Assembly (NCBI RefSeq): GCF_963853765.1
Contig: NC_088855.1
Coordinates: forward strand, 36,402,205 to 36,466,204
DNA from: Magallana gigas
Lineage: Eukaryota
DNA length: 64,000 bases
Reading direction: 5' to 3'
Position numbers and translations under genes: made by a program. The first letter of the stretch is position 1, and each line of letters starts with the position of its first letter. The notes beneath the pieces were generated by a model that was not told where the DNA came from, searched no databases, and saw nothing but the letters and a program-made list of their open reading frames with translations. Below, in pieces: positions 20,701-44,100 of this stretch.

Positions 20701-23700
20701 ACACGGTTATAGCGAACACGCTTATAATGAATTGACGCTTACAGCGAAGTGAATTTCATTCCCCAAGATTCTATTTCATGTTGTAAACTTGATGGATATA
20801 ACGAATTATGCTTATAACGAAGTTAAATCGCCCGTCCCTGGGACTTCGTTATAAGCGTGTTTTACTGTATTATTAATAATGAATCAATATGGTTTGTTCC
20901 TTGCTTTTCACGAAGAGATTATAATTCTGTAGAAGCAGAAATATTCATTAAGGATTTAAAAAATTTCATTATTTTCGTTGGCAGAATAAATCAACGAAAT
21001 TAAATCCACAATAAATATTTCATCCAAGTATTATAAATACAAAGTTGATAGGTGATACAATTTAGAAATTGCAATATGATGAAATTAATTGCCAACAAAA
21101 TTTTATTTGGTTTAAAACAACAAAATTTTAACCCAACCAAAATATGTGGTTTTTTTTATAATTAACAACTCTAACACACTTTTGAATTGCTTTTAAACTT
21201 AAACCTGCCTGAGCATCTAAATAATCAAGGTCACACTCTGTATTTGAAGCTAGTTTTGCTTTGTACTTCATTTACATACACTCATGTAGTTAAATCAACC
21301 ATGCATGTTTGAATAAGTAAGGACCATCATTAACCCAGATATGTGACCTGCTCGAAAAACTTTAAACTCATCCAGCATCACCTAATGCTCATCAAAGCTT
21401 GAAGAGTGCATTAGTATTAAAAGATGCATCATCCATCTAAGTAAAGATAGGACCAAAAATATCATAAATGTGATCATCATAAGGCAATTAATGCTCTATA
21501 ATTGTTTAACCTGGTTTTAAACCTGTAACCTCCTTCAGCATTCAATACCTATGGCTTAGATTCAGCAATCAAGTTTGTCAAGTGCTTAAGTATCATTAGA
21601 TGAACACTCTATGAAAGTTTGGTGAAGACAGGAATAAGGCTATTATTAACCTGAATATGGCCATCAAAGGGCAAATGCACCAAAGACTTAGCCTGCTCCT
21701 TAACTGTAACCTCCTTTAGCATTTGATACCTATAGCTTAGATTCAGCATCCAATTTTTTATTCCTGAAATGTGCCTAGATGCACCATAGGCTCAGTGAGC
21801 TGAAAATAACAGCAAATCTGTGTATACCTTTGTACTTGCTCTTATAAGGCATACTTATCAATGAAAGTCACTCTCAAATGTTTCTTACCTCTCTTTTCTC
21901 TGTGGATTAACATAAACGTCAATTTCATAATTTATGTTTTCCCTGGTACTAATCTTTTGATAGTGCAAATTCCCTGAAATAAGAAAATCATAACTTGAGT
22001 TCAGATTAAATATAGTGGCAGAGTTCTGTCTTGGATTTCTCATTTAAAAAACTTCAAATCTCAGATTTATGTCTCAGTTTCTAGTAAAAATTTTATTTTG
22101 TCCTCCAATTCAAGAAAGCACAAATTTGTATATTAAATTTCTAAAAAAAATTGTTTTAAACTAATTACTTTAACCATGTCAGACTTAAATCAAATCTCAA
22201 ACATTGAAACAATATAAATTGCATGAATACAAAATTGTTAATGTTATTAACATTCCTTAATTAGATCCATTCCACTCAGTTACAAATATGGAATTAATCA
22301 TTATCATTTACCAATACTCTGACTTTCTTCATAACAAACTTGATTCATATATCTTTGTTATAAGAATGTTCATCTATACCTGTCCAGCAGTGGACTTCAA
22401 AATCTCCATTTCCAACAGGTGCCTCAAACTGACTTTCATAAAGGCACAAGGAATTCAAAAGTTCTACAAAGAGGCAATTGCAATAAATCAATGCATATAA
22501 ATACAAAATACATAATAGGACAGAAATCATGTTTATTTCTTCAACTATAGTTTATTCTGTTTAAATATTTAATCCATTATCTCACCTTCTTCTGATAGCT
22601 CTAGTTCAAACTGGGTTCCCTTCAGATTATATGGTTCTTCGGTTCTCTGTGGCATCTTACTATCATCACTTTTCTTACTTATTTTTCTTTTCCTGCCTCT
22701 TGTTTTCTTTCCATACAATTTTTTTCTCCTATCTTTAATGCTTCTGTCTCTATCCCAGCTTCTATCACTACCCATTTTACTACTTTCCCAATACCAATCT
22801 CTTCTTTTGGATTTTCTGTAAATGTTTCTATCTCTTCTATTTTCTCTTTCATCCCAGCTTTTATTCCGGCGTCTGACTCTACTATCCCAGCTTTTGTTCC
22901 TGCTTCTGTCTCTTCTACCCCAGCTTTGATCCCTTCTTCTGTCTCTTCTATCTCTTCTTCTGTTTTCTCTTTCCCAGCTTCTGTTCCTACTTCCATCCCT
23001 ACTCTCCCAGCTCCTATCCCTACTTCGGTCTCTTCTATCCCAGCTCCTATCATAACTTCTGTCTCTTCTATACCAGCTCCAATCTCTACTTTTGGTTCTA
23101 GTATCTCTGTTTCTATCCCTACTTCTGGTTCTAATATCCCTGCTTCTATCCCTACTTCTGGTTCTTCCATCCCAGCTTCTATCACATCTTCTGTCTCTTC
23201 TATCCCAGCTTTTATCATAACTTCTGTCTCTTCTATACCAGCTCCAATCTCTACTTTTGGTTCTAGTATCTCTGTTTCTATCCCTACTTCTGGTTCTAAT
23301 ATCCCTGCTTCTATCCCTACTTCTGGTTCTTCCATCCCAGCTTCTATCACATCTTCTGTCTCTTCTATCCCAGCTTTTATCTCTACTGCTATCCATGCAT
23401 CTATCTCTACTTCTGTCTCTTCTTTCTCTTCTTTTATTTTCCCTATCCCAGCTTCTGTCTCTACTCTCCCAGCTTCTATCCGTACTTCTTGATTTCCTAG
23501 TACAGCTCCCATCATAACTTCTGTCTCTACTCTCCCAGCTCCTATCCCTACTTCGGTCTCTTCTATCCCAGCTCCTATCATAACTTCTGTCTCTTCTATA
23601 CCTGCTCCAATCTCTACTTTTGGTTCTTGTATCTCTGCTTCTATCCCTACTTCTGGTTCTAGTATCCCTGCTTCTATCCCTACTTCTGGTTCTACTATCC

Positions 23701-26700
23701 AAGCTTCTATCACATTTCCTGTCTCTTCTATCCAAGCTTCTATCCCTACTTTTGGTGCTGCAATCCCTGCTGTTATCTCTACTGGATCTTTTATCTCTAC
23801 TGCTGGTTCTACTATCCAAGTTCATATCTCTACTTCTCTCCCTTCTACCCAAGCTACTATTCCTGCTTCTGGTTATACTATCACAGTTTCTAACCCTACT
23901 TCTGTCCCTTCTACCCAAGCTTCTATCCCTTCTTTTGGTGCTATTATCCTTGATTTTGGTTTTACTATCCAAGCTTCTATCCCTACTGTTGGTGCTACTA
24001 TCCCTGCTTCTGGTTATACTATCACAGCTTCTATCCCTTCTTCTGGAACTGTTATCCCTACTTTTGGTGCTACTATCCCGGCTTCTGGTTATACTATTCC
24101 AGCTTCTATCCCCACTTCTTGATCTTCTATCAAAGGTCCTATTATGACTTCTGTCTTTTCTATTCCTACTTTTGGTGCTACTTTCCCTACTTCTTGTTAT
24201 ACTATCCCAGTTTCTATCCCTTATTCTGGATCTAGTAACCCTGATTCTATCCCTACTTCTGGATCTTCTATCCAAGCTCCTATTCATGCTTTTGGTTATA
24301 ATATCCCAGCTTCTATCCCCACTTCTTGATCTTCTATCAAAGGTCCTATTATGACTTCTGTCTTTTCTATTCCTACTTTTGGTGCTACTATCCCGGCTTC
24401 TGGTTATACTATTCCAGCTTCTATCCCCACTTCTTGATCTTCTATCAAAGGTCCTATCATGACTTCTGTCTTTTCTATTCCTACTTTTGGTGCTACTTTC
24501 CCTACTTCTTGTTATACTATCCCAGTTTCTATCCCTTATTCTGGATCTAGTAACCCTGATTCTATCCCTACTTCTGGATCTTCTATCCAAGCTCCTATTC
24601 ATGCTTTTGGTTATAATATCCCAGCTTCTATCCCTACTTCTTAATCTTCTATCCAAGCTCCTATCAATGCTTCTGGTTAAAATATCCCAGCTTCTATCCC
24701 TACTTCTTGATCTTTTATCAAAGTTCCTATCATGACTTCTATCCAAGCTTCTATCCCTTCTTTTGGTGCTACTATCCTTGCTTTTAGTTTTACTATCCCA
24801 GCTTCTATCCATACTTCTGGATCTGTTATCCCTCCTTCTATCCCAGCTTTTATCCCTACTTTTGGTGCTACTATCCCTGCTTCTGGTTATACTATCCAAG
24901 CTTTTTTCTTTGCTTTTGGTGCTTCTATCCCTGCTTCTGGTTATATCATCCAAGCTTCTTTCCTTACTTTTGATGCTACTATCCTTGCTTCTGGTTATAC
25001 TATCCCAGCTTCTATCCCTACTTCTTAATCTTCTATCAAAGCTCCTATCATGACTTCTGTCTCTTCTATTACTACTTTTGGTGCTACTATCCCTGCTTCT
25101 GGATATACTACCCCAGTTTCTATCCCTTATTCTGGATCTAGTAACCCTGCTTCTATCCCTACTTCTGGATCTTCTATCCAAGCTTCTGTTCCTACTTTTG
25201 GTGCTACTATCTCTGCTTCTGGTTATACTATCCCAGCTTCTATCCATACTTCTGGATCTGTTATCCCTCCTTCTATCCCAGCTTTTATCCCTACTTTTGG
25301 TGCTACTATCCCTGCTTCTGGTTATACTATCCAAGCTTTTTTCTTTGCTTTTGGTGCTTCTATCCCTGCTTCTGGTTATATCATCCAAGCTTCTTTCCTT
25401 ACTTTTGATGCTACTATCCTTGCTTCTGGTTATACTATCCCAGCTTCTATCCCTACTTCTTGATCTTCTATCAAAGCTCCTAACATGACTTCTGTCTCTT
25501 CTATTACTACTTTTGGTGCTACTATCCCTGCTTCTGGATATACTACCCCAGTTTCTATCCCTTATTCTGGATCTAGTAACCCTGCTTCTATCCCTACTTC
25601 TGGATCTTCTATCCAAGCTTCTGTTCCTACTTTTGGTGCTACTATCTCTGCTTCTGGTTATACTATCCCAGCTTCTATCCATATTTTTGGTGCTACTTTC
25701 TTCGCTTCTATCACTATTTCTGTCTCGTCTATTCCAGCTCCTATCCCTACTTCTGTCTCTTCTATGCCAGCTCCTATCACAACTTCTGACTCCTCTTTCT
25801 TCTTGTCTACTGTTATATTTCCTGTTTCTACTCCTTCCTCTTCTCTTAAAAACTGGACTTTTACTACTTTTAAAACTTTGATCTTCACTTTGCAAATATC
25901 TATTTCTTTTTTCTGAACCCGTGCCTTCTGAATAATTAGATTTTTCTTGTTCTCCATATCTCTTAATTATATTAACACTACTCTCATTTTCCTCAATATC
26001 TCTCTCATTTTCCTCAATGTCTTCATTTTCATCAAAGCATTTGTCTATTGGTCTAGGTCTTCTCTCTAAACTACTTCCCCTGTCATCATCCACCTCAAAA
26101 TCATCATCTTCACTGTCAGATTCAACATGAATATCACCATCTGAATATTCTTCGTCTGCTTTCTGATCTATATTGCCAGTGAAACTTTGTGGTGGCACGG
26201 TTTGAGAGACTGCTTCTGTAGTGGAGAAGTATGTTTGTGATATGGTGGGATTGTATGCTGGTGAGGTGGGACTGTATGCTGGTGAGGTGGGACTGTATGC
26301 TGGTGAGGTGGGACAAAATCCTGCTGAGGTAGAACCATATGCTGGTGAAGCAGGACTGAATGCTGGTGGGGTAAAACTGTTTGTATGAATGGTAGGAGTT
26401 AAAGTAGCCCTTAAGGAATAGCCCCTTTTCTTAGAAGCACTGGAACTTTGAATTGTTGATTTTAAAATCTGATTTAATTCCATAAGAGAGGAATTTTGTA
26501 CAACTTCATCTGGCTCATTTTCCTTTTGTGTTACATCAATGTCAAACTCTACATTATCTAAGTCTGATTCATTGAGTACTGCTGTTATTGACACACCTGT
26601 GGTGTTGCCAACATCATTCAACTGTTCAGCTATTACATTTGGTCCTTCTTGCTGATCCACCAAACTTTTCTGGTATTCCTATAATATAACAGAGATAGCC

Positions 26701-29489: not shown

Positions 29490-30565
29490 CGTTACACTGT
29501 AGATTGGGGTATCACTTGGACTAGAGCTTGCCTGGTGATGCATAGTAGGAGGAGGTGCACCTCCTCTCAAACGTTGAACCATAAAAATAATGGAATGTTC
29601 TCTCATATCTGGAAAACCATAGGAGTATAAATGAATGTACATTGTAGGTAGTGTGCAAAGGTTACAAGGAATATTGTGATGTTGCTCAACATTATCATAT
29701 TCCTCGTAATCTTAGTACAGTGTATTTATATGAAATACTGAAACCAACTTTATTCGCAACAACTTTATTTCGCGATTTACCAAAGATAAAACCTTTTGCA
29801 GCAACTAATTTTTGCCATCAAGTCACAGATTACTTAAAAATATATACACCAGAGAAATAGCTGGTCGGCGGTGAGAAATACTTGCGTCAACAAGGCTGTT
29901 GCGAACAGCGGGATTTTCTCGCATGCGAATAAAAGTTAGTTTACAGTACATATGCATGTACATATGTTCAGTTTATATACATGAACAATGCTGCAGTGAA
30001 CATGCATATACTTTGGTTTAATATTAAATCACAACAAATGCCCAAATTGTACAGTGAGGTATATGTACATGCAGTACTATATTGTTACTAACAATGATCA
30101 AATACTTTTTTTTTAATATTTAATGCTCTTGAATTCTACTGAATCCTGACAAACTCTAGTTATAAAAACCACTTAGGCAGCAAACCTATAGCAATGTATT
30201 TCAAGCTTCATACATGAATAATGATAAACAAACAATCTCTTGATACAGTACATATTTTGGGTTTTTTCAGACTTAATTATCAAATAATTGTTTCGAAGAA
30301 GTTTCAGTTTTTAATTAATCTAATCATGTTTCTACAGGCATTTATCTGGCAGAAATAAACGTTACTTAATACACACAAAAATCACAAATTAATATATGAC
30401 CTAAATTGTCTGTGTCCTCTAGTAGTTTTCCATGATGAATTAATCGTATGCTGCTCTCAGGCAGACCCTCTTTCTCCATGATTTCTAACTTTAATTGAGC
30501 CACTGTGCCGGCCACAACAGGAATGGACCTCCCAGTCAGAGTTCGCACCTCAAGCTGTTTAGGAA
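29490..30565 (-). CDS. Two exons (30401-30565 and 29490-29608) encoding a ubiquitin-like domain. They are either extra 3' exons of the PARP4-like gene or part of a separate UBL-domain gene.
   Basis: The spliced peptide is VPKQLEVRTLTGRSIPVVAGTVAQLKLEIMEKEGLPESSIRLIHHGKLLEDTDNLG-DMREHSIIFMVQRLRGGAPPPTMHHQASSSPSDTPIYSVT. It is ubiquitin-like end to end: compare ubiquitin TLTGKTITLEV...[44 protein letters not shown]. The donors are G|gtcata and ACG|gtaagt, and the acceptors are ccag| and ttccag|. More same-strand exons lie upstream at about 30930-31015 and 31270-31430. Confidence 0.55.
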
Positions 30566-32169
30566 CTGGGAGGAAAAATTACATTATACTGAAATACAGT
30601 ACTGTAAATGTACGATAGTGATATTTGGTGAAAATTGATTTATTCAACAGGTTAGCATAGATTTGATTTAGTGTATATTTGGATAAACTATTTATATTAA
30701 TGTATGCATGTTATTTGCAATGTACAGTATTTAATTTTAGTGAAGTGGCTTTCTGGCGAAAAAATGTTAAATAGAATACACTAGCTGCCAAATGCGAAAC
30801 ATTTACAGTAGTTCATCAGATTTTATGAAAGGATCAAAATGTTTATCGATTTCATTGAATACTGACAGAGAATCATAAATTTATTCAGGTAAGATGTGTG
30901 TCTAAGATAATTCAACTTAAGACCTACTGGATAAATATTTATGGAACTGTTGCTGAAGTGCTTGAGCTTTTTCTGAGTGCTGACTGCTAAAAAACTCGTC
31001 TGACCTCTCCAAGACCTGCGACAAACATGAACACAACAAAATATGTAAAGGTTTATATACCAAACCCATCTTAATTGCTAGCCAAAGGATTTATAATCAC
31101 AGCGGATAATAAACCATTGGCTGGCAAAAAAAGTACTTAACTAAGCAATCATCAGCAATGAAAACATAATTTATCAATTATGAAGAATTTTTAAAGATAA
31201 AAAATGGTCCCGAAATAATATTGTTGTTATTTAATTTGTAAAGAAATCCCTGTCTTTGGATCCACCACTAGCTGACCTTTTGTAGCATGTCCTTGTTGTC
31301 CTCCTGCAACAGATCCTTTCTGTAATCCAGCACAGACAGGTAGCACCTCTCCACCTCCAGCTGCGAGAAGCTCTCAGCAATGCTTGCCCTATGTAGTAGT
31401 TCCTCTACACACTCCAATGGATCCTACCAGTATTTAGTATTTGGGTTAAAATATTGATTGCACATTAATGACCTTGCATATAACCCATTCAAAATTTCCA
31501 TGATGTGTATTGATATGCACTTTATCATTCATTTGAACATCTTTGATGATATGGCGGGATGTCATTCTGCAATGTTTTAATTGAATCACTGGCAAATTAA
31601 TGCTTTTTTATTGTAACATTATATTTCTTCCTTTGTTCCACAACAAAACCATATATTTACATCTACCGAGTATGATTTCCTCTATTTCTTACGGAAACTT
31701 ATTGTTAATTCATTGCTCTATAGAAACTGACACAACTGAAATCTACACGCCCATACATTGATTGGTTGAAACCTACAGCGACTGAAACTGACAGGACTGA
31801 AAACTACACGCCCTGTTTATCGATTGGTTGAAACCTACAGCAACCTAAGAAAAATTACAGACTGCACAAAATAATCATGACGTATACATATACATATCCT
31901 ACATGAATACCCTAAGGAAGCATTTTGTTGTTTAAAATTGGCTGCTCTATCTGAAAATTTCTCTAATCATATATTTATATATTCATCAAAGACAATATTT
32001 TCTTAGAAATAAGCCTTAATCTAAGCACAAAGTACTAAATAAGTGGATTGATACATGTATGTTCTATCACAATTCTCCCTACAGTATACTGATACTCTCA
32101 GAGGAAAGAATACAAATTGGATGCTTTGCTATCAGGGTTACTAAAATAGTACAGGTGTTTTTCTATCTA

Positions 32170-35100
32170 TTTGTACCTTTTCATCCATATTATCCGCATT
32201 GATCCATCCCATGTAGGTAAGATTATCCACAGATTCATTGTTTACTAGCTCTTCAATACTTGGACCCTCAGTTGTTTCCCCCTAAAATAATAAATCATTT
32301 TCTATATTTTTTTAGTTACAGGTGATACACATGATCATACATGTACATTGTTTTTAAAATGTATATTCATCATAAACCATATTTGCAAATACAAAAGTAC
32401 ATATATCAGTACTTAAAATATAAAATATCAGGTGTTCAGGAACTTTGCAATGTTCCATACAATTGCCACAAACTGCTCTGGTACAATTTTTGCAATTTCA
32501 AAATATCAAACATGACCCAGTGAAAGATCCCTTATATTCTACCTCTGTCCTCTCTTCTATGGCTACAAAACTGGTGTATGGAGTCACAATTCCAAACTCT
32601 TTGCTGAGCTCAATGATATGCTGCTTTCTTTCTTGTTTAATTAACTGAAAGAAAAAACCCAGTTCATCAGTAAAATCGAATTCCAGATCTTGATTTATTT
32701 GACAAGAACTCTGGTCAAATTTCAAATTTTACTTTTACAAACCAAATTATTTTGATGTTTCACTAACATGCAAGATGATTTTAACAGAGAGAATTGGGGA
32801 TCCTGAATAATTTTAACATGTGTGATTTATTTTAATGTATATAAGATGTAGATATGAAGAATTACAGTGTGCATGATCAGTGCCATACCTTGTGGTGAAG
32901 TTTGCTGTCACTCAGAACCCCGTCCTCATAATCTCTTATAACAGCCCGGGCCGCCAACTGATGCAGCATCTAACGGTACAGAACAGAAAGTGCATAAATA
33001 GCAAATGTTAAATCTTTCAGTTCATGTTCATAGATGAAATTAAATGACATTTGAAATACTCAAAACTCTACCAATCTTAACATTGACTATTTCAAGAATC
33101 ATAGCAGTTTGTAGGTATTGGTCAATAATCATCTATTTACACTTATGAAACTTCCTTTTCAACCTGTAAATCTAGGACTGGCTCCGTCGTCACTTTCCTC
33201 AAGTCAATACTCAGCCTCAAATCTGAGGTTTTTCCTCAAATTTTTATGTGCTTTAATTTCTTTAAAGTATTTGAGCCGAGGAATGAGTTGAGTGATTAGA
33301 AAATATTTTGGTGACGGTGGAGCAAGGTCAGTCTATATTTGCCCTGTATATTATTACCTTAATACTGTAGTTTTGCATGGTGATTAAACAGAAAATTTGA
33401 TACCATTTGTCATATTAATGCTTCTTTACCTTTCCCTCTGTGAAGTTCAGCTCTGTTGTAGAAACAATTGTTTCAAATTCCTGTTCATCAACCTTTGCCT
33501 TTAAAATTGCCTATAAAGAATAAACTATGAATGAAATAATCTTTCAAATATAATAAATCAACACAAATGATTACAGTTCCTAAAAAATAAACCTATATTA
33601 GTTTTTATATACATGTACAAGCACTTTTACTTATCAAATATCAAACTTATTTCCTAGACTGCTTCACAATTATCTCCCCTTGAAATCTGTACAATGTATT
33701 TTGGTTTGAAAAAAAAAAACCCACTTTAAATCAACAACGAATTGCATAGTAATTTAATAACATACCTACATGTACATGTAAATTAACAAAAAATGTCATT
33801 CTTTCAAAACATACCTGTGTGCAATTCTTGACAAATCCATACACCACAAGCCTATTTGCACTGAACAGGCTGGGGATCTTACAGGGAGCCTGAAGGGGTG
33901 GATCTAGTTTATCAGTGAGCGGGCCCCACTCCACCTGCACCTGGGAGATCCCAGGCCGTGTAGCTTGGTCCATTTGTAATGCAATCTGTAAATACACCCA
34001 CAGAAGCATACACTTATGTACCCTGGAAAAAACCCATCTCTCTCTCTCTCTCTCTCTCTCAATAAGAAGCACCTATAAAAATAAGTTAGCAATAGTCTTC
34101 AAATCCAATCCAATCATTACAATAAACACTTTAATTTAACATGAAAAAAAGTTCCACCTGTTATTTACCTTTGACTGCCAGTTAGATTTGGTTTTGCTGT
34201 TGAAGTATTCATATGTCCCACCTCCATAATTAGCTAAACTCCGTAATGTATGACTGTCCCTATTACTTCTAAAATGATATCACCACAACATTTTTGATTA
34301 ATAAAAAGATCATTTTAAAATTGTTCCATTTTCCAACCATTTTATCAATGTTCACTACTGGTGTTATTGAATGTTTAATAAAGCACAGAAATATCTTTCA
34401 GATATTCAGGATAAATCTTGCAATTATGGGATGTGTATCTTTATTGGCAACATCAAGCATATTCAAACTAAAGGTTTTAGAAACATAAGTATAATATACA
34501 AATATTTTCACTATTATTTTATAATTTCTATCAGGTGAACAAACACACTTACCAGTCTGTAACATAGAGCATGTTTACTTACCCAACACCCATGCAGAAC
34601 AGCCTATTTTTGGAGGAATGTTTGGCAACAGTTTCAAAAAGCCCCTCATTTCCTACAAATCCATCAGAGATCAGGAAGATGCTTCTACTGCCCTCTGCTG
34701 GACTTAGTAAGTACAGAGATTTCAGGGGAGATAACACATCACTGCAGCCCATCACAGGATTGGCTCTCTGAAATAATAACATGATAATACAAATATTTTA
34801 TCAGATGAATAATAGATGTAATATACATGTATATTACAAACATACATATATAAAAAGAAAATTCTACGGTTACTTGATGTGTATCTTAATTGTTATACAC
34901 TAGGTATAGCACATGTGTTTAAGAAATCTCATACATGTGTTATGAACATTATATGCATAAATACATGTACATGACAATGGTTACATGCATTTTCAACATG
35001 TCAGAAAATTGAGCCTTTATCCCTTTACAACCAAGTCTAAACAAACCTCAATATATTTCATGGCCTCATTAGTTGAATTCTTTGTAATTCTATGAGGAAA

Positions 35101-38100
35101 CTGGAAGAGCTCCCTAAAGGATGATCCAAATGTCATGATGTTAAAGCAAGCTTTCTCAGGAAGATTTTCTAGTGCCAGCAGCAAGACCTGATGTAAGAAT
35201 GAAAGAATTTTTAAAATATTTTTAAATCACCTTGAACAAATAAAAATGGCCCCCCTACCCCCCCCCCCCCAAATAAAAAAAATAAGTCCTTGAAAAAATT
35301 AAAGTACTATTTGTTAGGTAATTTGGGAGCTAGAATTGATATGCTCATTTTTGTTGGCTAACAAAAGGAATTTATTTAATACATGAATAACCAAATAATA
35401 GATAAAAGAATTACAAAACCATTCCACAGACGAATCTTCATGTCCAATGCATACATGTACTAGATCAACTGCATGTAATTGTAATTATCATACATGTATA
35501 TTAAAAGATATCAATAAATGGATAACAGATATACCTTTCTGGAATCTCTAAATGCGTCCCCTTTCATAGAGTTGGATAAATCCATAAGGAATACAACCTC
35601 TGGGCTAGGATCGATTGCTGCCTCAAATTCAGGGTAAAAAGCTAACATACAGGCCTGTAATCATTCAAAGTCAACCATTAATTTATACAAAAAATTTCAG
35701 ACCCTGTGTCCTTAAGCAATTTAAGTTCTCAATCCCTATGAATTTTAATTTTTTTTTTATTCAAGCAATAGTAAAATTGGTTATTTTTGTCCTCTACAAT
35801 GCTTCTTACCTGCACATCTCTTTCTGGATGACATTCCACCCACATGCGCGGAACATGGATTTCTGCCAACTTAATCAGCAGCTGGAATCCTTCGGCAAAG
35901 TTGGACTTCTTTGGTATCTCCACCACAGCCTTGGTATCAGTTTTCTATTGATAAACAAAATACTTTGTAGCCAAAAAAAAACCTTAAGACAATCAAGAGT
36001 TACTTTATGTCGTTAACAAAACATGTAACATAAATCTTTGTGTAAATCATAAATGACATGAAGAAAAAAAAAAAAAGTGACATAAACTCGAACCTTGTAC
36101 TTGAGTCTATGAGTTCCAGAATTCAGTTCCCTTATTTCAAAAGGCATTTCTATGGCAGCTTGCAGAGAGATCTGACAATCCATTAAGTCACTGATCTGAA
36201 GGACTGATGTCTCTGCCTGCAAATAGTTTGTCAAAATTAAGCAGCATGAAAACTTTCCATGTTCACTACCTGCCATCTATATTGAAGCTGTACACATTCC
36301 AAAGAAATAACTGATGCATGAGGACAATGAATGCAATTTATACACCTAGGATCAGTACCTGGGTCTGCTGAGCTAAGGCCGTATCTCTGACCCACGGGGC
36401 CACTGAGGCAGGGATGGTCAAGGCTATGCCATCTCCCTCCACCCCAAGCTCACTGATATAGGTCAACTTTATCAGTACCTCCGAATCGGGCGGTAGATTT
36501 CCGACACTCACAGTGAATACATCCTAAAAGCAATAAGCAGGTAAATTAAATTTATTTGTTTTCCCTCGGACTGAAATGTCACACTTTCATTAGTTTAAAC
36601 ATAGCACGTGACTGCCTAATATATCTCTATGTTTGTTCTATGAGAATTAATATTGGGCAAAATGGCCGTCATTGGCCAACGCTTCGCCTTCTCATTTCAA
36701 AATTTCATGATATTTAATACAAAATCTGCATGCCATAAGTTCTTAAAATATTTGGAGTAGTTGCCCTTTGAAATTCTTTAAAACTAGATTTGTTGCCCTT
36801 TGAATATTGACGTCACATTGTTGTGTCTGGAGCAGAATAAAACAGCAGTGTTGAGATTTGCTCAAATCTCTGCAGCGGAAAGGGAGAAAGCATTTAAAAT
36901 TGAATGGCAACAAAACATTATAAGTAAACAATAGTGTAGCAAAGATTTTCAAAGAGTATTTGAAAGGTGAGATTGATAATTTTGAAGAGTTTAAATAAGT
37001 TAAATTGGATGAGATGTTAGGCAACTTGTATACATAGGTTTGCGTAGATCATCATTTTTTGTGATTAATATGCCACTTGATAGTCCTTGGGAAAACAAAA
37101 CACTTATTAGGTTTGTTACTGACAGATTACAGAAATATATTGGGTTGATCATGCAATCCCATAGAAGGCTTGACTTTGCCTCGCCATGAGATCGATCAAC
37201 CCGATATATTTCTGTAGTCAGTCAGTAACTAACCTAATAAGTAATAATAGACATCAAGTACAGTCAAAGCAGATACCGTATTATCTGTGTTCCACCCAAG
37301 GTATATAATTTTTTTTTCACATTACACCATAGCATTATTGCATGTGCATTACACATCTAAACTTATCCACATCATCATACTGAAACACTTTCTTTTAACT
37401 TTTAATCTCTTCTAGCTTCCATGACTCTTGAGTTGACACTTACTGGTTCCTCCTCGTCCATTAAGTATGCACCGTGACCTTTACTGATGGCCTCTCTGTA
37501 CTCGCGGTGTGCTGTCTTCTTTTCCTTGATTTCTCCTAAAAATCCCCACAACCAATGGTAAAACTTTTAAACATGTACCACTTTAAATCCGTAGAACACA
37601 ATTTTTTCAAATAACTATAGGAATTGAAACTCTCATGTTTAAAAAAAAGGTTTCAGATGATAAAAATTTTGTGTATTGATCCCTATAAAAGACATCTTTT
37701 TCTTAGCTTTTAATCAAAACATGAAGGGAATATTAACTTCAATGTACATGCCTATAATGTGTTTCCCATTTATGAATGCTTCGAATCCACACACAGCAGC
37801 TTTCTCATCCAGAGGGAAGACATACTTCGCCTCGATTGGCTCTGTCATGTTGTTTTTGTAAGATTGCAAGACAACAACCTGGTTAGAATTTTAAAAAAAA
37901 TGAATTGAAAGAGTTTGCTTTTGCTAGCTATCACTCTCAAATTTGAAGAATGAAAAAAAAAAATAAAGGATGGGAGAATCAAATTACTATATCATATCAA
38001 GACATGATTACTGATAAGCAGATTATACATTCATTATGACATACATGAACAATCCAATCTTTAAATTTTTCTATTGAACACATGGAGCATGCATTTTTAC

Positions 38101-41100
38101 ACAGTATCTGTCTTACCTTTGCCACCATATCAATGACCTTGGCCCGGATATGGACTGCTTTCAGTGGGACTCGAACAGACTTATTCTGGCTGATCAAACC
38201 GCTGGTCACTTTGGAGAAGGGGTCAGGCAGGTCCTTTAATTCCATTATATCTAGTAGATACACAAGTACAAGTACATCAAAAATAAATTTATATTATATT
38301 AATTGTATATACCAGTTCTTACCATACCATGAATTTCAAAGAATAAAAAAATGGAAATACTGGTAACTTCTTTATCATACTTCTTAATTATTTCCTTCAA
38401 TTCCCACGATATATGTTCTTGATACTCTGCCTATATGTCCCCTCTGTGTCAATTTTAATAACAATCAACAAATTTCTTGTTTAAAACAGAAAGACAGACA
38501 AAACAATCACATTAGATGTACCGGGTATATGTTTATTTTTTTAATTAAATTCAATTAAAAGAGAGTCACAGAACTCTTACCAACAGAGCTTGCCGTGACC
38601 TCCATGTTTTCCTCCTCCTCCTCGGGCGTGGTTTGGATCAGTCGAAGGGGTGGATCACTGGGGAGTGTGAACAGAACTACATACTTCACTTTCTGCTGTG
38701 ATGTGCTGTATATCACAAACTCATCATCCTGTCATGGATAAGAATTACAAACACACTGTAATTGTGAGGAAAGTGATAAAATTATACTGGGTATAAAGGA
38801 ACTTTTAAAGCAAGTACTATAAATAAGTCTAATTCACATTTTTCTTTAAAGGTACTGGTAGTCTTTTTTTACACAGTATGAAAAAAAAAAGAAATTAATT
38901 ACAGTTTCTTCAAACACATTTTAAGATTTGACTGAATGAGAGTTACATCTACATACATGCAAGTGTATGATAAAAATAATCGTTAGTATGATGTTTCACA
39001 AACAATAAAATAACATACAATGTATATGGCGAAACATGAATGAAACATATACAACACCATTGCACATACTCTTAAAGTATACACTTGTAAATGCTTTCTC
39101 ATAAGTTCACCATTTTGCAAAACTTAAATAACATGAGACCTACCAAAAACTCTGTTGGATCGTTCTCTGTGGTCTTCACTCCGTGGCAACTGTGGTAGCC
39201 ACCAGGTGGTGCTGTTATACCTGACTGGAGGGTGGTGAAGTCCATACAATTTCCTAGCGCCACTTCACAGAATACCAGCATTCTCATCCCCGTCACAGCA
39301 CTTGGTACAGCGTACTGAAGGCACGTGCTGAGTCACAATATAGAGAGAGGTCAGAAGTTATAACTTTTTATACTAAATCCACTGATACAGTTTTATGAGT
39401 TGGTGGCAATGTACTGTGGCATTTTTTGTCTGCAACCTTTTTTACACGTTATCATTCTTAAACTGGATTGGGGTTTTTTTCTTAATATTAATGTAATTTG
39501 ATACACTGGGGAGATCATGTATTATGGTATTGTGTATGAGTGATCTCCCCTTTACTGATTTGTGTATCTATTAAATTTTCCTGTCACCTTTTAAATAAAT
39601 GACAATTTCATCCATCTGCATGTATCTTGGTGTTTGGGTGACTTTTTGGGTAACAAAAGTTAGGTTAGAAAATAGAATATTACCCAGTCTGATCATGAGT
39701 ACAAAACTAAAGTGTCAATGAACTTGTGAATTACACTGAAGAACATATATACAATTTTATGAATTCAATTTGATATATTATTTGTAAGTATGATATGTGA
39801 TCATGTATACATGTGCTCGTTTTTTTCATCATATTTCTATGACAATATCTGAATACAGACCAATATGTGTATAAGTTTTAAAAGAATATATTTTATAAAT
39901 TTGAAATTGAAATCATATATCTACTGAAAAATCATATCAAGGTCAAGAAAATGTAATACATTCAGTATAGTTAAACATTCAGAAGAACACAATTTTTTTA
40001 TTTACATACATGCCAACTTTTGAAAATCTCCATGGGGGATTTTACGCGCGACGACATTTTCCTTGAAGGAAATTTCGCGGCATTTTGTCGTGTAATTGCT
40101 TTGTATAAACAATTGAACTCTTAGAAATTCATCTGTTTCTTTATCTATTTATCATTATCCTAATGTGTTTATCAAACAATCTCCTCTTTCAAATGAAATC
40201 ATAAATAAAGTTCATAACTTTATTTTCATATATTAAATCAATCTTTGAAATCTCCACAAACAATAAATAGTATGGTATAGCAGTTCAAAAAGCACTAAAT
40301 TCTGCAACGCAGTTGGCAAACTGGACCTCTGCTCTTGTGACGTCTACAAAATAAAATGACTAATTAATTAAATTAAATATTAAAAAGCATTTATGGGTCA
40401 AGTTGCTATAAAAAGTGAAAGAAAGTATTTATAATTGTTTCCTGGCTTAAAATTCTTTAGAAATATTATATACTAGCTTATTAAAAAATTTAGTTACCTT
40501 CATCTTGCTCCAATTTTGATTTCACAAACAAGTTGGTAGCAGCAGGTGGCTTGATGAATGGCTGTTTTCGTGTTCTTTGTAACATCATTCATTCCACCAT
40601 GGTCTACCCTAAAATCCCTCAAAATAAAAAAAAATTGTTACTCATAAAGTTTAACATATCTACAATATTCTTCTTGTAGATAATGTATTATAATAGCTAT
40701 CAATCTCTCCTTGTGTCATGTGTACACAATAAAATGTACCCTGTCAATATATTTAGTTGTACTATATATAAGTTAAACATACCTATTGCACGGCAATATA
40801 CATGGTTGTCATCCAATTACGATCCCGATAGTCATCACGAAAATCGGGAATCTGCCTCCCGATATTGGGATGAAAGTTTCGTTTTCTTTGGTGGTGTAAC
40901 CCCATTCTTGTCGAAGTTTGTGTAAAAAGTGTGGCATTTCGCTATCCATCCCGATACTTCCCGATTAATTACTATCAAAACATGCTCCCCATTAGGTTTG
41001 CAAGCACCCAGACACAGGTAGAGTACAGGTAATTACACCGATATACACACACGCGATACAGGTAAACAGCAATGGCGGTCATAATCCCGCTTTTTGATTG

Positions 41101-44100
41101 GTTAGCGTAGACAAGCAGCGCGGGATTTGAAATTTTAGATGGAAATCGGGACTTATTGTCGTAAAACGGGTTGGACTTTTTGAGAATCGGGATTTCGAGG
41201 TATTTTGACAATCCCGATCGGGATATCGGGATTTGTATTTTTGATGACGTGAAATCGGGAGAATCCCGCAAAAATCGGGATAGTTGGCATGTATGTATTT
41301 ACTTGAATGAATTGGAGAAGTAGATTCCATATCCCAGTTTTCCCCCATCTGTCCTGTTCACTCCGTGTTCCTCCACTACATTTTGAGGAAGAAGTAGTCC
41401 CCTAAGAGAAAATCATTCATTGCCTGAATCACAAACTGTAATTGCACACTGTTGCAGTGTTTATAGTCTCAAATTATCAATCAAAAGGTGTTATCTACAT
41501 GTATTCTTCATAGTTAATATATGAATTGAATTAAACACAAATTTTGTTATGGCATCTAAGTACTTTACATAGAAAAATGTCAATCATAGAAACCTAGCTT
41601 GTATTCACCAATGAATGACAAGTTTACCTTGATAGAATTCCCAAGAGATTATGGGGCCCTGAAGCATGCATCAATAATTGTGTGTTTCCAATACATTCAG
41701 CAGTACTCTCAAACAAAATGTCCTCCATGGTTCTCCCAGCTTCAAAAACACTGTGAACTGCAATGCTTTAAAAAGACAAAAGCAACACTTATACGACATG
41801 ATGATAAGAAAACAAAACTTTGAGAAAACATACACATACATGTGCATGATTATTAGGATGAATGTTTACACACAGTCTTTAAAATGGAGTATAAAGTATA
41901 AAGGCAACTACTTTAATAACAAGAAAATAAAAACCACCTTTGTTCACTGTCCTTGAGAATATTTTGTATGACTTGATATTTGCTGGCAGACAGGTCCAAT
42001 TTTGTCATGTGACATCTTAGGGCCCTGTACTTAGCAACAGTGCTGGCAGCAGGAGAAAAATCTGTGGCTTCACTTACAGCCAAGACATCATAGATCAACT
42101 GCAAAAGATAGATATAAATGCAAGACCATAAAAAATATATCAATATGAGCATGTTAAATGGCCCAACTGCAATTTACTGCTAACTGCTTTTAATAGCTTG
42201 AATAAAAACTTTGAGAAAACTTCAGAAAACAGGTACATAGTTAACTAGCCGTGATTTTTAATTGCCACCATAATATATAACTTTCGGTACACATAAAAGC
42301 ATACTGCTACATTTCAGTATCCCAAATAAAAATCTGCACAAGATGTGGAGAAAACATTCATTGTATACCATGTTTTCCTGTCTGTGTGCCATTCAAATTT
42401 TTCTGCAACCCAGGAAATTAAATGTTCATTGAAGTTCAATTTCAACTAACACTTTGTATTGATAGGATCATTGGCCACGAAATTACGTATCCTTAAAACT
42501 GTGGTTTTCAGAAAATCCACGAAAATTGATACCCACGAAAATTAATGAAACCACAGTACCTGACACAAATCTAGTTTCTGGGAGATGGTTTGTGGATCTA
42601 GATCTCGTGTTATGTACTGTTGTTTGTGGGGGAGAGCCTCGTTATAGAACTCTTCCACTAATCCAGCCAAGCGGTTGTCTCCTTGATTCTCTTTCTTCAT
42701 CTGCTTAATCTGTTGCAAAATGACCATGGCATCATCTACCTACAAATGAGATTTAAAAAGATTACGTTACACATTTTCATAACTTATTTTCCATTTGACA
42801 TAAGGACTACATGTAAGAAGATCAAATACTTACATGTAAGAGCAAAACAATGCATACACTTTGTTTTGCACATTAACAACAGCTTTTCTAAGCTTTACCT
42901 GAAACAAGCAACAATGATAAATTAAGATGCATACTTTATCAGATTTGATATGTTCCATAGACATAGTAAGCATTTTCTCAGCCTCTTGGGTGGCTTCCTT
43001 CCAAATCATCTCCACAAACTGTCCGACATCTGGATCAAGGTCACTGTTCATCAAACAAAGATCATCCAATGTCTGAAGAAAAAAGAACCTATAGCCCTTA
43101 ATTTCTGCCACAATGTTGTACAAAGTGACTTCACATCAAACTCCACTTATCTTTTGTGACATTTTACAACAGTATGTATCAATGTAAACATGAGATTAAA
43201 ACATTGTTTAATTGTCAATAGTTGTAGAGTTATTGAATTACAGGAAAATTTTGAGCTTTTATCAAACACCATTTGAGATATAGAATCATACAAAATTAAC
43301 ATGCCTAGTGTACATCAATACTTTTAGTACTTTGATTAATATTTGTTGGTAGTGAATTCTTTACCATTTTGAGTTTGTGTGACCCTATTTGATTGGAGAC
43401 AAATCTAGGTGTGTACCAAGGTTCCATATTCATCATGCCTGATGTGTACCTCTTGTAAAGTTGTTCAAAACAAACCAGAACTTCATCAGCAGTATCCAAA
43501 TACCAGACCACAGGGCCTTCAGAAGCCAATATGTGCTGCAAGAGTAATTTATGTTTAGTTAAGTGCTCATGAATAACTTACAGCTATACAAACAACAACA
43601 AAAAAAACCACAAGTAAAAATCAATTTTTTCCCATAGAAATGGAAAAAAAAAAGATAAGGGGACTAATTTTAACATAACTTCACAGAAAAGAGTCATTTT
43701 TACATTTAACCTGTAGAGGAATATCATTGAAGGATTGTGTTCTATAGAAGCACAGTAATCACCTCCCCATCCAAGTGTCCCTCCTGATGATATAGCCGGA
43801 ACTTGTCACATGACGTCAGCGCATGAACCTCAATAACCTGAATCACTTTTGTTGACTGAAAAGTGAATAATGAGAAATCATAAATTAAATTGTATATCAT
43901 TTATTAACATTATGATCTTGCACATCAATTTATTATCACATGTATATATATAAATAAAATATGGGAATTACTAGGATTGGGTGGAAATCAAACATTGTGG
44001 TGAGTCAATTCTAATATAGCACATAAGCTGTCTCAATTCAGGTTTCAAAATACTAATCCTTGTCAATTAAATTAACTGACCTATATTGTACATGTATATA

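What the first reader, a model, noticed from the sequence alone, without database searches (positions are those of the whole stretch)
29490..32285. Ubiquitin-like-domain exons lie directly downstream of, and on the same strand as, the vault-PARP (PARP4) gene
PARP4 homology to human is continuous from the BRCT domain through ...VDNLTYMGWIN (human DVDFLPYMSWQ) at about 32170-32285. Further same-strand exons at 31270-31430 and 30930-31015 are then followed by two exons encoding a complete ubiquitin fold ending ...IIFMVQRLRGG, after which coding continues (APPPTMHHQ...). As far as I know, human PARP4 has no UBL domain. This is either a mollusc-specific C-terminal extension of vPARP, which would give a ubiquitin-like module on the vault particle enzyme, or a closely abutting separate UBL gene.
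Basis: partly seen in the sequence, partly recalled or inferred. Interest (0 to 1): 0.55.

Follow-up and report, generated by a model that had tools for sequence, protein, structure and literature searches.

The report
Ubiquitin-like domain inside oyster PARP4 gene
Two exons encoding a ubiquitin-like domain with an intact RLRGG tail lie inside, not after, an oyster's vault-PARP (PARP4) gene, between its enzyme half and its vault-anchoring end, a domain combination I did not find described for any PARP, though whether the exons are kept in the mature mRNA is unproven.

Summary
On the minus strand, canonical AG/GT exons C, D, E, F and G (32281-29490) chain in one frame. Exons F and G encode a 70-residue ubiquitin-family domain (Pfam PF00240, E=1.7e-8; 43% identical to ubiquitin) ending QRLRGG|APPP.

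The interpretation needs correcting. PARP4 does not end at 32177. That point matches human residue 1212 of 1724.

- After exon G comes a 4.1-kb exon (26678-22586) with YSPTSPA heptads and an Arg/Ser/Asp-rich repeat region.
- RNA-seq contigs show this exon spliced to eight further exons ending at 17744.
- Those exons carry the only detectable match to the human PARP4 vault-binding domain (BLASTP E=1e-6; shuffle z=8.8).
- Predicted Crassostrea gigas proteins join PARP4 vWA exons to the tail of exon G and the giant exon.

So the UBL sits in the PARP4 linker. Exon D has no start codon until residue 46 of 49 and begins at an acceptor, which argues against a separate gene.

No transcript covering exons D-G was found, and the C. 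gigas models skip the UBL. Whether it is constitutive, alternative or cleaved after GG is unknown. I rate it a new variant of a known kind, of moderate interest.

The parts
32177..46259 (-). PARP4 core, from the start ATG at 46259 (MEDNIFHNF...) to the end of exon C. It covers the BRCT, WGR/HD/ART and VIT-vWA (ITIH-like) regions.
   Evidence: Concatenated exon translations hit human PARP4 (PDB 11jf_P) at E=1.5e-225, aligned to human residues 57-1212. Weaker hits go to ITIH4 and ITIH1. The start codon was located.
32177..32281 (-). Exon C, the last exon with detectable similarity to human PARP4 (...VDNLTYMGWINADNMDEK). Phase 0 at both ends.
   Evidence: the alignment ends at ...YMGWI, matching human residue 1212. 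Codon log-likelihood z=2.7.
31277..31423 (-). Exon D, 49 aa, with no detectable homologue (DPLECVEELLHRAS...DNKDMLQK). It begins at an AG that doubles as an in-frame TAG. The only Met is at residue 46.
   Evidence: Splice sites and phases. It gives the strongest coding-potential peak of the region (log-likelihood 0.69 per codon, z=4.2, GC 0.50 against 0.31 in introns). ATG positions.
30928..31015 (-). Exon E, 29 aa plus one base. Its phase-1 donor (CCA|GTAGGT) is the only way into exon F in frame.
   Evidence: Coding z=2.3. The ATG-containing extension upstream of it (31069-31016) scores like intron.
30401..30565 (-). Exon F, the first 53 residues of the ubiquitin-like domain (KQLEVRTLTGRS...LLEDTDNL). 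The UBL starts at about 30560.
   Evidence: Pfam PF00240. Ubiquitin hits in the PDB. Coding z=3.5. The read-through beyond the donor is intron-like.
29490..29608 (-). Exon G. It carries the last 17 residues of the UBL (DMREHSIIFMVQRLRGG; GG codons 29564-29559) and then APPPTMHHQASSSPSDTPIYSVT. An internal candidate acceptor sits at 29531 (cctcctcctactatgcatcaccag|GCAAGC).
   Evidence: The part from 29531 onward is the only part of exons B-G present in the C. gigas models XP_034299736.1 and XP_034299737.1.
22586..26678 (-). Giant exon of 1364 codons. It has a unique acidic N-terminal part, then YSPTSPA heptads (about 26350-26260), then an Arg/Ser/Asp-rich repeat region (about 25650-22840; 68% R+S+D). 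The donor GAAGAAG|gtgaga at 22586 is used, not the TAA at 22572.
   Evidence: Acceptor phase matches exon G. All tandem-repeat periods are multiples of 3. The cDNA contig L002 splices 22586 to 22463. The N-terminal part is 63% identical to the C. gigas XP models. Composition.
19394..22463 (-). Four cDNA-verified exons: 22463-22380, 21973-21889, 20606-20435 and 19549-19394. They encode a conserved region with a sub-threshold Med25 PTOV/ACID-like match.
   Evidence: Exon map from cDNA L002. Pfam PF11232 at E=2e-4, 21.6 bits (cut-off 25), covering profile positions 5-153 of 154.
17744..19020 (-). Last four exons: 19020-18978, 18828-18746, 18501-18402 and 18069-17744 (stop codon at 17746-17744). 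They encode the counterpart of the human PARP4 MVP-interacting domain. The 3'UTR extends to at least 17219.
   Evidence: cDNA L002. Human PARP4 residues 1580-1635 is the only or best PDB hit. Pairwise BLASTP gives 33.5 bits, E=1e-6, 19/52 identical. Shuffle test z=8.8, with 0 of 2000 shuffles reaching the score.

Best explanation
What it is. The window holds one long PARP4 (vault PARP) gene of a Crassostrea-type oyster, on the minus strand from 46259 to 17744. The predicted reading frame is about 3000 aa.

Between the ITIH-like (VIT-vWA) region and the C-terminal vault-binding (MVP-interacting) domain, vertebrates have only a disordered linker. The oyster gene has acquired extra coding exons there:
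- a short region with no detectable homologue (exons D and E);
- a ubiquitin-family domain (exons F and G) ending QRLRGG, followed by Ala-Pro-Pro-Pro;
- a giant exon with RNA-polymerase-II-CTD-like YSPTSPA heptads and about 950 residues of Arg/Ser/Asp-rich repeats;
- a conserved region with a weak Med25-PTOV-like match.

The UBL is therefore an internal module of PARP4, not a neighbouring gene.

How it most likely works (inferred, not shown). The domain keeps ubiquitin's recognition surface (Leu8, Ile44, Val70, Arg42) and the Arg72-Leu73-Arg74-Gly75-Gly76 tail, and the next residue is not proline. From established ubiquitin biochemistry, it should be read by the cell as ubiquitin.

My preferred mechanism is cleavage by a deubiquitinase after GG. 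That would separate the catalytic and ITIH-like half (now ending in a ubiquitin-like GG) from the RS-rich, vault-anchoring half. Among readings in which the exons are expressed, I put this at about 40%.

The next alternative (about 35%) is an uncleaved docking module for ubiquitin receptors.

Because exons B, C and D are each phase 0-0, and E, F and the 5' part of G together make 330 nt, the UBL can also be spliced out in frame. It may therefore be an alternative module.
For: Shown by tool results:
- PARP4 identity up to exon C, matching human residue 1212 of 1724.
- An AG/GT, phase-consistent chain from C through G to the giant exon.
- UBL above the Pfam cut-off, with ubiquitin as the best PDB match, and conserved key residues.
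- Coding-like codon usage in D, E, F and G, only in the proposed frame.
- RNA-seq contigs from the same species (98% identical) and from three related species that join the giant exon to the terminal exons in one reading frame.
- Significant pairwise similarity of those terminal exons to human MVPID residues 1581-1632, at the same distance from the C-terminus (86 against 89 residues). The MVPID is defined as residues 1570-1724 in PMC10450202.
- C. gigas RefSeq models XP_034299736.1 and XP_034299737.1 join PARP4 vWA exons, the tail of exon G and the giant exon in one predicted transcript.
- No start codon is available for a stand-alone UBL protein.

Inferred: the cleavage and docking mechanisms. 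They rest on sequence features and on established knowledge that ubiquitin-X fusions are cleaved for every X except Pro.
Against: - No transcript or protein covering exons D-G was found. That search also lacked hits for the undisputed PARP4 exons A-C, so it has no power either way.
- The only sister-species models that reach this region skip exons B-F and the UBL part of exon G. They use a junction (GVLS|ASSSP) that cannot be made from GT-AG sites in this window.
- The exon F donor and the exon D acceptor are weak.
- The similarity to the human MVPID is short (52 residues) and weak in database-wide terms (E=0.1 to 0.4). The last exon alone does not hit PARP4.
- Some integral UBLs keep a GG without being cleaved. 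From my own knowledge, SF3A1 ends ...RGGRKK.
Confidence: 0.6

Rival explanations
1. The UBL exons are real but minor. They would be alternative cassette exons, or exons lost on some haplotypes, and the main PARP4 mRNA would skip them, joining exon A directly to the internal acceptor of exon G at 29531, as the C. gigas models suggest.
For: XP_034299736.1 and XP_034299737.1 lack exons B-F and the UBL half of exon G. The internal acceptor at 29531 has a good pyrimidine tract. Skipping keeps the frame, given the phases. The F donor and the D acceptor are weak.
Against: - The models are computational. They start at an internal Met of a PARP4 exon, and their junction is not a GT-AG site in this window.
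- They also drop exons B and C, which are conserved parts of the ITIH-like region in human PARP4. That makes them doubtful as the main form.
- A domain only 43% identical to ubiquitin, with an intact frame, hydrophobic core and RLRGG tail, implies long-term selection on translation.
- Their lysine-rich exon (27891-27799) has stop codons in all frames upstream in this window.
Confidence: 0.2
2. A separate gene is nested, or abuts, on the same strand. It would encode a short N-terminal region, the UBL and the RS-rich tail, with its own promoter between 32177 and 31000. It would resemble UBL-first, processed splicing factors such as SDE2.
For: The homology to human PARP4 stops just upstream. An RS/RD-rich tail and CTD-like heptads look like a nuclear RNA-processing protein rather than a vault enzyme. 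NCBI gives the C. gigas models a non-PARP name. An in-frame ATG exists at 31069.
Against: - Exon D is the most coding-like segment of the region. It starts at an acceptor directly after an in-frame stop and has no ATG until residue 46.
- The 31069 extension is intron-like.
- Position 1 of the UBL is Lys.
- The RS exon is spliced to the MVPID-like exons in cDNA.
- The C. gigas models begin inside PARP4 vWA exons.
- The density of polyA hexamers in intron C-D is no higher than in bona fide PARP4 introns.
Confidence: 0.08
3. The UBL is a relic of an old insertion of ubiquitin-coding sequence into a PARP4 intron. It would no longer be spliced into any mRNA and would have no function.
For: There is no expression evidence for the exons. 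The sister-species models skip them. Two deletions relative to ubiquitin are present, one of them at the exon junction.
Against: After about 57% divergence from ubiquitin, a neutral relic should have accumulated stops or frameshifts. Instead, two exons keep their frame, compatible phases, flanking AG/GT sites, the core residues and the RLRGG tail. Codon usage is coding-like only in the correct frame. The domain carries an intron, so it is not a processed copy.
Confidence: 0.1

Closest known systems
Human PARP4 / vault PARP (UniProt Q9UKK3; PDB 9bw6, 9bw7, 11jf)
   Same: The N-terminal BRCT-WGR-HD-ART region and the VIT-vWA ITIH-like region align over human residues 57-1212 at E=1.5e-225. The C-terminal exons match the MVP-interacting domain at the equivalent distance from the stop codon. 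In both species a long, fast-evolving linker separates the two halves (PMC10450202).
   Different: The human linker is about 350 residues of disordered sequence with no domain. The oyster linker is about 1700 residues and contains a ubiquitin-family domain, YSPTSPA heptads, an Arg/Ser/Asp-rich repeat region and a possible PTOV-like domain. The two surveys of PARP domain architecture I read do not list a UBL in any PARP.
Ubiquitin fusion precursors (polyubiquitin, UBA52, RPS27A) and the ubiquitin insertions in cytopathic pestivirus polyproteins
   Same: A ubiquitin-type domain ending RLRGG, followed in frame by a non-proline residue and further protein. The L8/I44/V70 patch and R72/L73/R74 are kept. 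From established knowledge, such fusions are cleaved by host deubiquitinases.
   Different: Identity to ubiquitin is only 43%, with two 3-residue deletions and Gln at position 71. In cellular precursors ubiquitin is N-terminal. Here about 1200 residues precede it, which resembles the viral polyprotein case more than any cellular gene. Cleavage was not tested.
SDE2 and TUG/ASPSCR1 (proteins cut after a diglycine in a UBL)
   Same: A UBL ending in GG inside a larger protein, where cleavage separates functional halves. In SDE2 the released C-terminal part acts in splicing and replication, and the oyster C-terminal half is RS-rich. In TUG the N-terminal product ends in a UBL-GG and acts as a modifier. 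These comparisons rest on my own knowledge.
   Different: There is no sequence relationship beyond the ubiquitin fold. The SDE2 UBL is N-terminal. Nothing here shows cleavage.
Integral UBL domains of multidomain proteins (RAD23, parkin, UHRF1, USP-internal UBLs)
   Same: A ubiquitin fold embedded in a larger protein, which would act as a docking surface for proteasome or ubiquitin receptors if it is not cleaved.
   Different: From my own knowledge, most of these lack the RLRGG tail. The oyster domain keeps it completely.
Crassostrea gigas XP_034299736.1 / XP_034299737.1 ('serine/threonine-protein kinase fray2-like' isoforms X1 and X2)
   Same: They cover the same locus in a sister species. The PARP4 vWA-end exons are 99% identical, and the tail of exon G and the N-terminal part of the giant exon are present (63% identity overall).
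   Different: They are truncated predictions that start at an internal Met. They skip exons B-F and the UBL, include a lysine-rich exon that is not intact in this window, and end inside the RS repeats. The kinase name reflects low-complexity similarity only, since Pfam finds no kinase domain in the homologous giant exon of this window.

Membership tests
PARP4 / vault PARP (PARP clade 5) | A PARP catalytic region in mid-protein, preceded by BRCT and homologous to PARP4 rather than to other PARPs | tested here: met
   Human PARP4 scores 754 bits (E=1.5e-225). PARP4 catalytic-fragment structures 8sx1 and 8swy also hit. PARP3 scores only 21.9 bits.
PARP4 / vault PARP (PARP clade 5) | A VIT-vWA (inter-alpha-trypsin-like) region after the catalytic domain | tested here: met
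   The alignment is continuous over human residues 489-1212. Secondary hits go to ITIH4 and ITIH1.
PARP4 / vault PARP (PARP clade 5) | A C-terminal MVP-interacting domain (human residues 1570-1724) | tested here: met
   Pairwise BLASTP E=1e-6, 19/52 identical to human 1581-1632. Shuffle z=8.8. The match lies at the same distance from the stop codon. It is weak in database-wide terms (E=0.1 to 0.4), and the last exon alone gives no hit.
PARP4 / vault PARP (PARP clade 5) | Physical association with vault particles, and ADP-ribosyltransferase activity | not testable with these tools
   Requires biochemistry. The catalytic triad was not inspected in full.
Ubiquitin family (Pfam PF00240) | A sequence match above the curated cut-off over nearly the whole profile | tested here: met
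   34.6 bits against a cut-off of 25.4, profile positions 3-71 of 72. Reproduced with a longer construct. Ubiquitin is the best PDB match.
Ubiquitin family (Pfam PF00240) | A beta-grasp fold | not testable with these tools
   The domain is split over two exons, and structure prediction refuses spliced sequences. The alignment to ubiquitin conserves the core positions.
Processed ubiquitin-like modifiers and ubiquitin fusion precursors | A C-terminal diglycine followed by a non-proline residue | tested here: met
   ...QRLRGG|APPP, with GG codons at 29564-29559. R72, L73, R74, G75 and G76 are all kept.
Processed ubiquitin-like modifiers and ubiquitin fusion precursors | Endoproteolytic release by a deubiquitinase or UBL protease, and conjugation through E1/E2 | not testable with these tools
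   Requires experiment.
   Position 1 of the UBL is Lys. Exon F needs the phase-1 donor of exon E. Exon D starts at an acceptor after an in-frame TAG, and its only Met is at residue 46. The ATG at 31069 lies in intron-like sequence.
   Two polyA hexamers occur in intron C-D, no denser than in true PARP4 introns. No transcripts are available for this stretch. The bacterial-type promoter scan is uninformative.
SR proteins | An RS domain together with at least one RRM | tested here: not met
   The repeat region is 68% Arg+Ser+Asp, but Pfam finds no RRM or other domain in the giant exon.
RNA polymerase II CTD heptad repeat (PF05001) | YSPTSPS-type heptads above the Pfam cut-off | tested here: inconclusive
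   Three perfect YSPTSPA heptads and a 21-nt tandem period. The score is 19.1 bits against a cut-off of 20.3. The C. gigas homologue is flagged PF05001.
Med25 PTOV/ACID domain (PF11232) | A match above the Pfam cut-off | tested here: inconclusive
   21.6 bits against a cut-off of 25, E=2e-4, covering profile positions 5-153 of 154. A profile search of the PDB gave no MED25 hit. The AF2 model was unusable.

The most novel reading that the evidence does not exclude
Oyster PARP4 is made as a precursor of about 330 kDa and is cut by a deubiquitinase after RLRGG. One product is a catalytic BRCT-ART-ITIH-like fragment of about 150 kDa whose new C-terminus is a ubiquitin-like diglycine. That end could be conjugated to targets (as with TUG/TUGUL) or ADP-ribosylated on its terminal glycine (as DTX3L-PARP9 does to ubiquitin). 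The other product, carrying the CTD-like heptads, the RS-rich repeats and the MVP-binding domain, stays on vaults or goes to the RNA-processing machinery. This would be a built-in switch coupling ubiquitin-type processing to vault ADP-ribosylation.
Probability: 0.12. Interest if true: 0.8.

Novelty: new variant of a known kind. Interest (0 to 1): 0.45.

Why it matters
PARP4 is the least understood PARP, and the function of vault particles is still open. Its linker is already known as a hotspot of rapid evolution, and authors have suggested it as a site of cleavage or modification (PMC10450202).

An oyster version carries a near-canonical ubiquitin module, with an intact recognition patch and RLRGG tail, exactly in that linker. 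It is followed by CTD-like and RS-rich sequence. This gives a concrete, testable hypothesis: separation or tethering of the catalytic and vault-binding halves is regulated, here by the ubiquitin system.

[quoted passage not shown] The PARP domain surveys I read list only ubiquitin-binding or E2/E3-like modules in PARPs, never ubiquitin itself.

If the exons turn out to be rarely used, the finding reduces to a lineage-specific curiosity of gene structure.

Tried and rejected
1. I first took the TAA at 22572, with AATAAA just after it, as a possible gene end, and guessed a small exon at 22432-22380. The cDNA contig L002 shows that the donor at 22586 is used, that the true acceptor is at 22463, and that there are two further exons, 21973-21889 and 20606-20435.

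2. A protein search with exons A-G found no orthologue covering the UBL. Neither did a search with the giant-exon N-terminus, beyond the two C. gigas models. The collection lacks mollusc PARP4 models and RNA-seq ORFs for this part, so absence is uninformative.

3. An exact look-up of XP_034299736.1 in the assemblies found nothing on record. The C. gigas locus could therefore not be inspected.

AF2 on P0124 with a 4-sequence alignment gave a mean pLDDT of 34.5, so no fold search was run.

5. An HMMER search of 1.84 billion representatives with the C-terminal profile returned only oyster fragments and one spurious repeat protein.

6. A profile search of the PDB again found PARP4, at E=0.11, and no MED25. 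The last exon alone gave no PARP4 hit.

7. A JGI metagenome scan for exons D-G found no relatives.

8. The sigma-70 promoter and terminator scan is meaningless for a eukaryote, with counts equal to the shuffled expectation. No tRNA genes were found.

9. Literature searches for mollusc PARP4, for the SRA run accessions and for the XP accession returned nothing useful.

10. I considered alternative exon F donors (ATTT|GTGATT and TTTT|GTGTGT). I rejected them because the read-through sequence is intron-like (GC 0.22, log-likelihood -0.67). They are not formally excluded.

Full report
**Observation**

Reading 29000-33000 on the minus strand and chaining candidate exons by script gives seven exons:
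- A 32969-32889
- B 32644-32543
- C 32281-32177
- D 31423-31277
- E 31015-30928
- F 30565-30401
- G 29608-29490

Each is flanked by AG and GT, and the phases fit (E ends in phase 1, F runs 1 to 1, G ends in phase 0). Together they give one open 269-aa reading frame.

Pfam places a ubiquitin-family domain (PF00240) on exons F and G. The score is 34.6 bits against a cut-off of 25.4, E=1.7e-8, covering profile positions 3-71 of 72 (repeated). Against the PDB the best matches are ubiquitin itself, at about 40 bits and E about 2e-9 for mono-ubiquitin. A global alignment gives 30/70 identities with two 3-residue deletions. The following ubiquitin residues are kept: Leu8, Ile44, Val70, Arg42, Lys27, Lys33, Lys48 and the complete Arg72-Leu73-Arg74-Gly75-Gly76 tail. 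Lys6 and Lys11 become Arg, Lys29 and Lys63 become Glu, and Met1 becomes Lys. After GG (codons 29564-29559) the frame continues APPPTMHHQASSSPSDTPIYSVT.

**Is the upstream gene PARP4, and does it end at 32177?**

Concatenated exon translations from 44.9 kb to 30.9 kb hit full-length human PARP4 (PDB 11jf_P) at E=1.5e-225. The alignment covers human residues 57-1212 and ends at ...YMGWI in exon C. Weaker hits go to ITIH4, ITIH1 and PARP3. The start codon is at 46259.

Human PARP4 is 1724 residues long. After the ITIH-like region it has a disordered linker and then the MVP-interacting domain (MVPID) at residues 1570-1724 (PMC10450202). Loss of similarity at residue 1212 is therefore expected and does not mark the end of the gene.

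**What follows the UBL**

Exon G ends in phase 0. At 26678 an acceptor (tattatag|GAA) opens a 1364-codon exon in phase 0. Its contents are:
- a unique acidic N-terminal part;
- three perfect YSPTSPA heptads plus degenerate flanking copies (21-nt tandem period; Pfam CTD repeat at 19.1 bits, just under the cut-off);
- about 950 residues that are 68% Arg+Ser+Asp.

Every tandem-repeat period in this exon is a multiple of three, including 315- and 435-bp units that are 97% identical. That fits in-frame expansion of coding sequence.

I first thought the TAA at 22572 might end the gene. A protein search with my provisional spliced C-terminus then returned four ORFs from Logan RNA-seq assemblies. P0124 is 98% identical, and P0125 to P0127 are 71-76% identical and come from related oysters.

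The contig carrying P0124 (L002, run SRR12564931) aligns to the window at 97.4-100% identity as a spliced cDNA. Its blocks are:
- 22888-22586
- 22463-22380
- 21973-21889
- 20606-20435
- 19549-19394
- 19020-18978
- 18828-18746
- 18501-18402
- 18069-17744 (stop codon), followed by a 3'UTR reaching at least 17219

All junctions are GT-AG and the phases are consistent. The related contig L001 stays open in the RDRS frame up to its 5' edge. So the RS-rich exon and the terminal exons are one mRNA in four species.

**Are the terminal exons the PARP4 C-terminus?**

Human PARP4 residues 1577-1635 is the only PDB hit of these exons in one search. In a second search it is the best hit, though nearly tied with an unrelated protein (E=0.44 against 0.48). 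It reappears with a four-species profile at E=0.11, ranking second. These E-values are weak in database-wide terms.

I recovered the human sequence for residues 1521-1724 from a PDB alignment and ran a direct comparison. BLASTP gave 33.5 bits, E=1e-6, 19/52 identities and no gaps, matching human residues 1581-1632. A shuffle test gave z=8.8, and none of 2000 shuffles reached the score. The match lies 86 residues from the oyster stop codon and 89 from the human one.

The last exon alone does not hit PARP4. AF2 on P0124 failed with a pLDDT of 34.5.

I accept the homology as shown at the level of one conserved segment. Its position and context support it. No VIT or vWA exons lie between 26 kb and 17 kb that could belong to a second, VWA5A-like gene.

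**Link between the PARP4 core and the giant exon**

The N-terminal part of the giant exon hits two C. gigas RefSeq predictions, XP_034299736.1 and XP_034299737.1. Their sequences and their mapping to the window show the following:
- They start at an internal Met of a PARP4 vWA exon (window about 33973).
- They continue through the next PARP4 exon and the first 20 residues of exon A.
- They jump to the last 14 residues of exon G (ASSSPSDTPIYSVT, starting at the internal acceptor at 29531).
- They include a lysine-rich exon (27891-27799) and then run into the giant exon.

This is annotation-level support that PARP4 exons, the tail of exon G and the giant exon share transcripts. These models skip exons B-F and the UBL, however. 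Their junction GVLS|ASSSP cannot be made from GT-AG sites in this window. Their lysine-rich exon has stops in all frames upstream in this window. I could not retrieve the C. gigas locus. A deletion allele, an assembly problem or a genuine alternative isoform all remain possible.

**One gene or two?**

Codon-usage log-likelihoods were trained on 1101 codons of PARP4 exons A and B and the exons upstream of them, most of which align to human PARP4, against intronic triplets.
- Exon D is the most coding-like segment of the region (0.69 per codon, z=4.2, GC 0.50 against 0.31).
- E, F, G and the giant exon are positive only in the proposed frame (z=2.2 to 5.2).
- Exon D begins at an AG that is part of an in-frame TAG, and its only Met is at residue 46 of 49. 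It must therefore be spliced to an upstream coding exon.
- No other coding-like peak lies between exon C and exon D.
- Exon F can be entered in frame only from the phase-1 donor of exon E.
- The single in-frame ATG upstream of exon E (31069) lies in sequence that scores like intron.
- PolyA hexamers in intron C-D are no denser than in true PARP4 introns.

Together with the flanking transcript evidence, this places the UBL exons inside the PARP4 transcription unit and makes an independent UBL gene unlikely.

Direct evidence that D-G are retained in mature mRNA is missing. No RNA-seq ORF in the searchable collection covers them. None covers the undisputed exons A-C either, and a metagenome scan was empty. 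Because B, C and D are each phase 0-0, and E, F and the 5' part of G together make 330 nt, a UBL-less isoform would stay in frame.

**Mechanism (inferred)**

A domain that has diverged to 43% identity from ubiquitin has still kept its frame across an intron, its hydrophobic core, the Leu8/Ile44/Val70 surface, Arg42 and the RLRGG tail. That argues for selection as a translated module.

From established ubiquitin biochemistry, such a module followed by Ala is a plausible deubiquitinase substrate. Cleavage would separate the catalytic and ITIH-like half from the RS-rich, vault-binding half. I favour this slightly over an uncleaved docking role for ubiquitin receptors. Neither is shown.

**Comparison and novelty**

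The closest known protein is human PARP4. The oyster gene meets the family's sequence criteria but carries a linker about five times longer, with a UBL, CTD-like heptads, RS-rich repeats and a possible Med25-PTOV-like domain (PF11232, E=2e-4, below cut-off). The PARP family surveys I read list UBCc, UIM, U-box, WWE and RWD modules in PARPs, but no ubiquitin domain. I rate it a new variant of a known kind, of moderate interest, limited by the missing transcript proof.

**Surroundings**

Upstream of PARP4 on the minus strand lies a Ty3/gypsy-type retrotransposon (54003-48074). Downstream lie a Tfb4/GTF2H3 gene, a gene similar to the YqcI/YcgG family and a p24/GOLD-like exon.

Noticed in passing
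window 26350-26260 (minus strand, inside the giant exon): Three perfect YSPTSPA heptads plus degenerate flanking copies, identical in pattern to the RNA polymerase II CTD repeat, sit inside the PARP4 linker. TRF finds a 21-nt period. Pfam PF05001 scores 19.1 bits against a cut-off of 20.3. The C. gigas homologue has more copies and is flagged PF05001. C. gigas isoform X2 removes this stretch, and the window has matching internal splice sites (ACAG|GTGTGT at about 26597 and ctacag|AAGCAG at about 26216).
   Followed up: partly
window 25650-22840 (minus strand): About 950 residues of Arg/Ser/Asp-rich repeats (R 31%, S 22%, D 15%) are built from nested tandem units. Every period is a multiple of 3. 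The 315- and 435-bp units are 97% identical, which indicates very recent in-frame expansion. RNA-seq contigs of four oyster species all break inside this region.
   Followed up: partly
window 22463-19394 (minus strand; exons 22463-22380, 21973-21889, 20606-20435, 19549-19394): The conserved region between the RS repeats and the MVPID-like domain gives a near full-length but sub-threshold match to the Med25 PTOV/ACID domain (PF11232, E=2e-4, 21.6 bits against 25, profile positions 5-153 of 154). MED25 also has a vWA domain. No PDB MED25 hit was found and no usable structural model was obtained.
   Followed up: partly
window 20438-20474 (minus-strand exon 20606-20435): An 18-bp perfect tandem duplication adds six residues (EFLPIG) relative to the same-species cDNA contig L002. 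This looks like an in-frame length polymorphism in a coding exon.
   Followed up: partly
window 27891-27799, and the junction between exon A (about 32910) and exon G (29531): The C. gigas models XP_034299736.1 and XP_034299737.1 use a lysine-rich exon that has stop codons in all frames upstream in this window; only its 3' part is open. A poly-A run there may hide a frameshift or a homopolymer error. The models also join exon A to exon G at a point with no GT-AG in this window. A genomic deletion allele in the C. gigas reference would explain the junction.
   Followed up: partly
window 19971-20356: A 33-bp minisatellite (12 copies, 81% matches) lies in the intron between exons 20606-20435 and 19549-19394. 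It is open in several minus-strand frames but absent from the cDNA.
   Followed up: partly
window 54003-48074 (minus strand): A Ty3/gypsy-type LTR retrotransposon with long open frames lies upstream of the PARP4 start. It carries gag (PF03732), aspartyl protease, RT (PF00078), RNase H and integrase (PF17921, PF00665).
   Followed up: yes
window 9600-900 (minus strand): Downstream neighbours on the same strand are a TFIIH Tfb4/GTF2H3 exon (6101-5898, PF03850, E=2.5e-21), a YqcI/YcgG-family-like exon (2681-2262, 26 bits against a cut-off of 27) and a weak p24/GOLD-like exon (1243-947).
   Followed up: partly
window 31860-31740 (minus strand, intron C-D): A direct repeat of about 60 bp (gctgtaggtttcaaccaatc...gtgtag[t/a]tttcagt) lies in the intron between the last human-like PARP4 exon and exon D. 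It looks like a small repeat element.
   Followed up: no
window 17700-17480 (minus strand, 3'UTR of PARP4): A stretch resembling a tRNA-derived SINE head (ggctcagtggcc...ggttcaaatc) lies in the 3'UTR. ARAGORN calls no tRNA gene there.
   Followed up: partly
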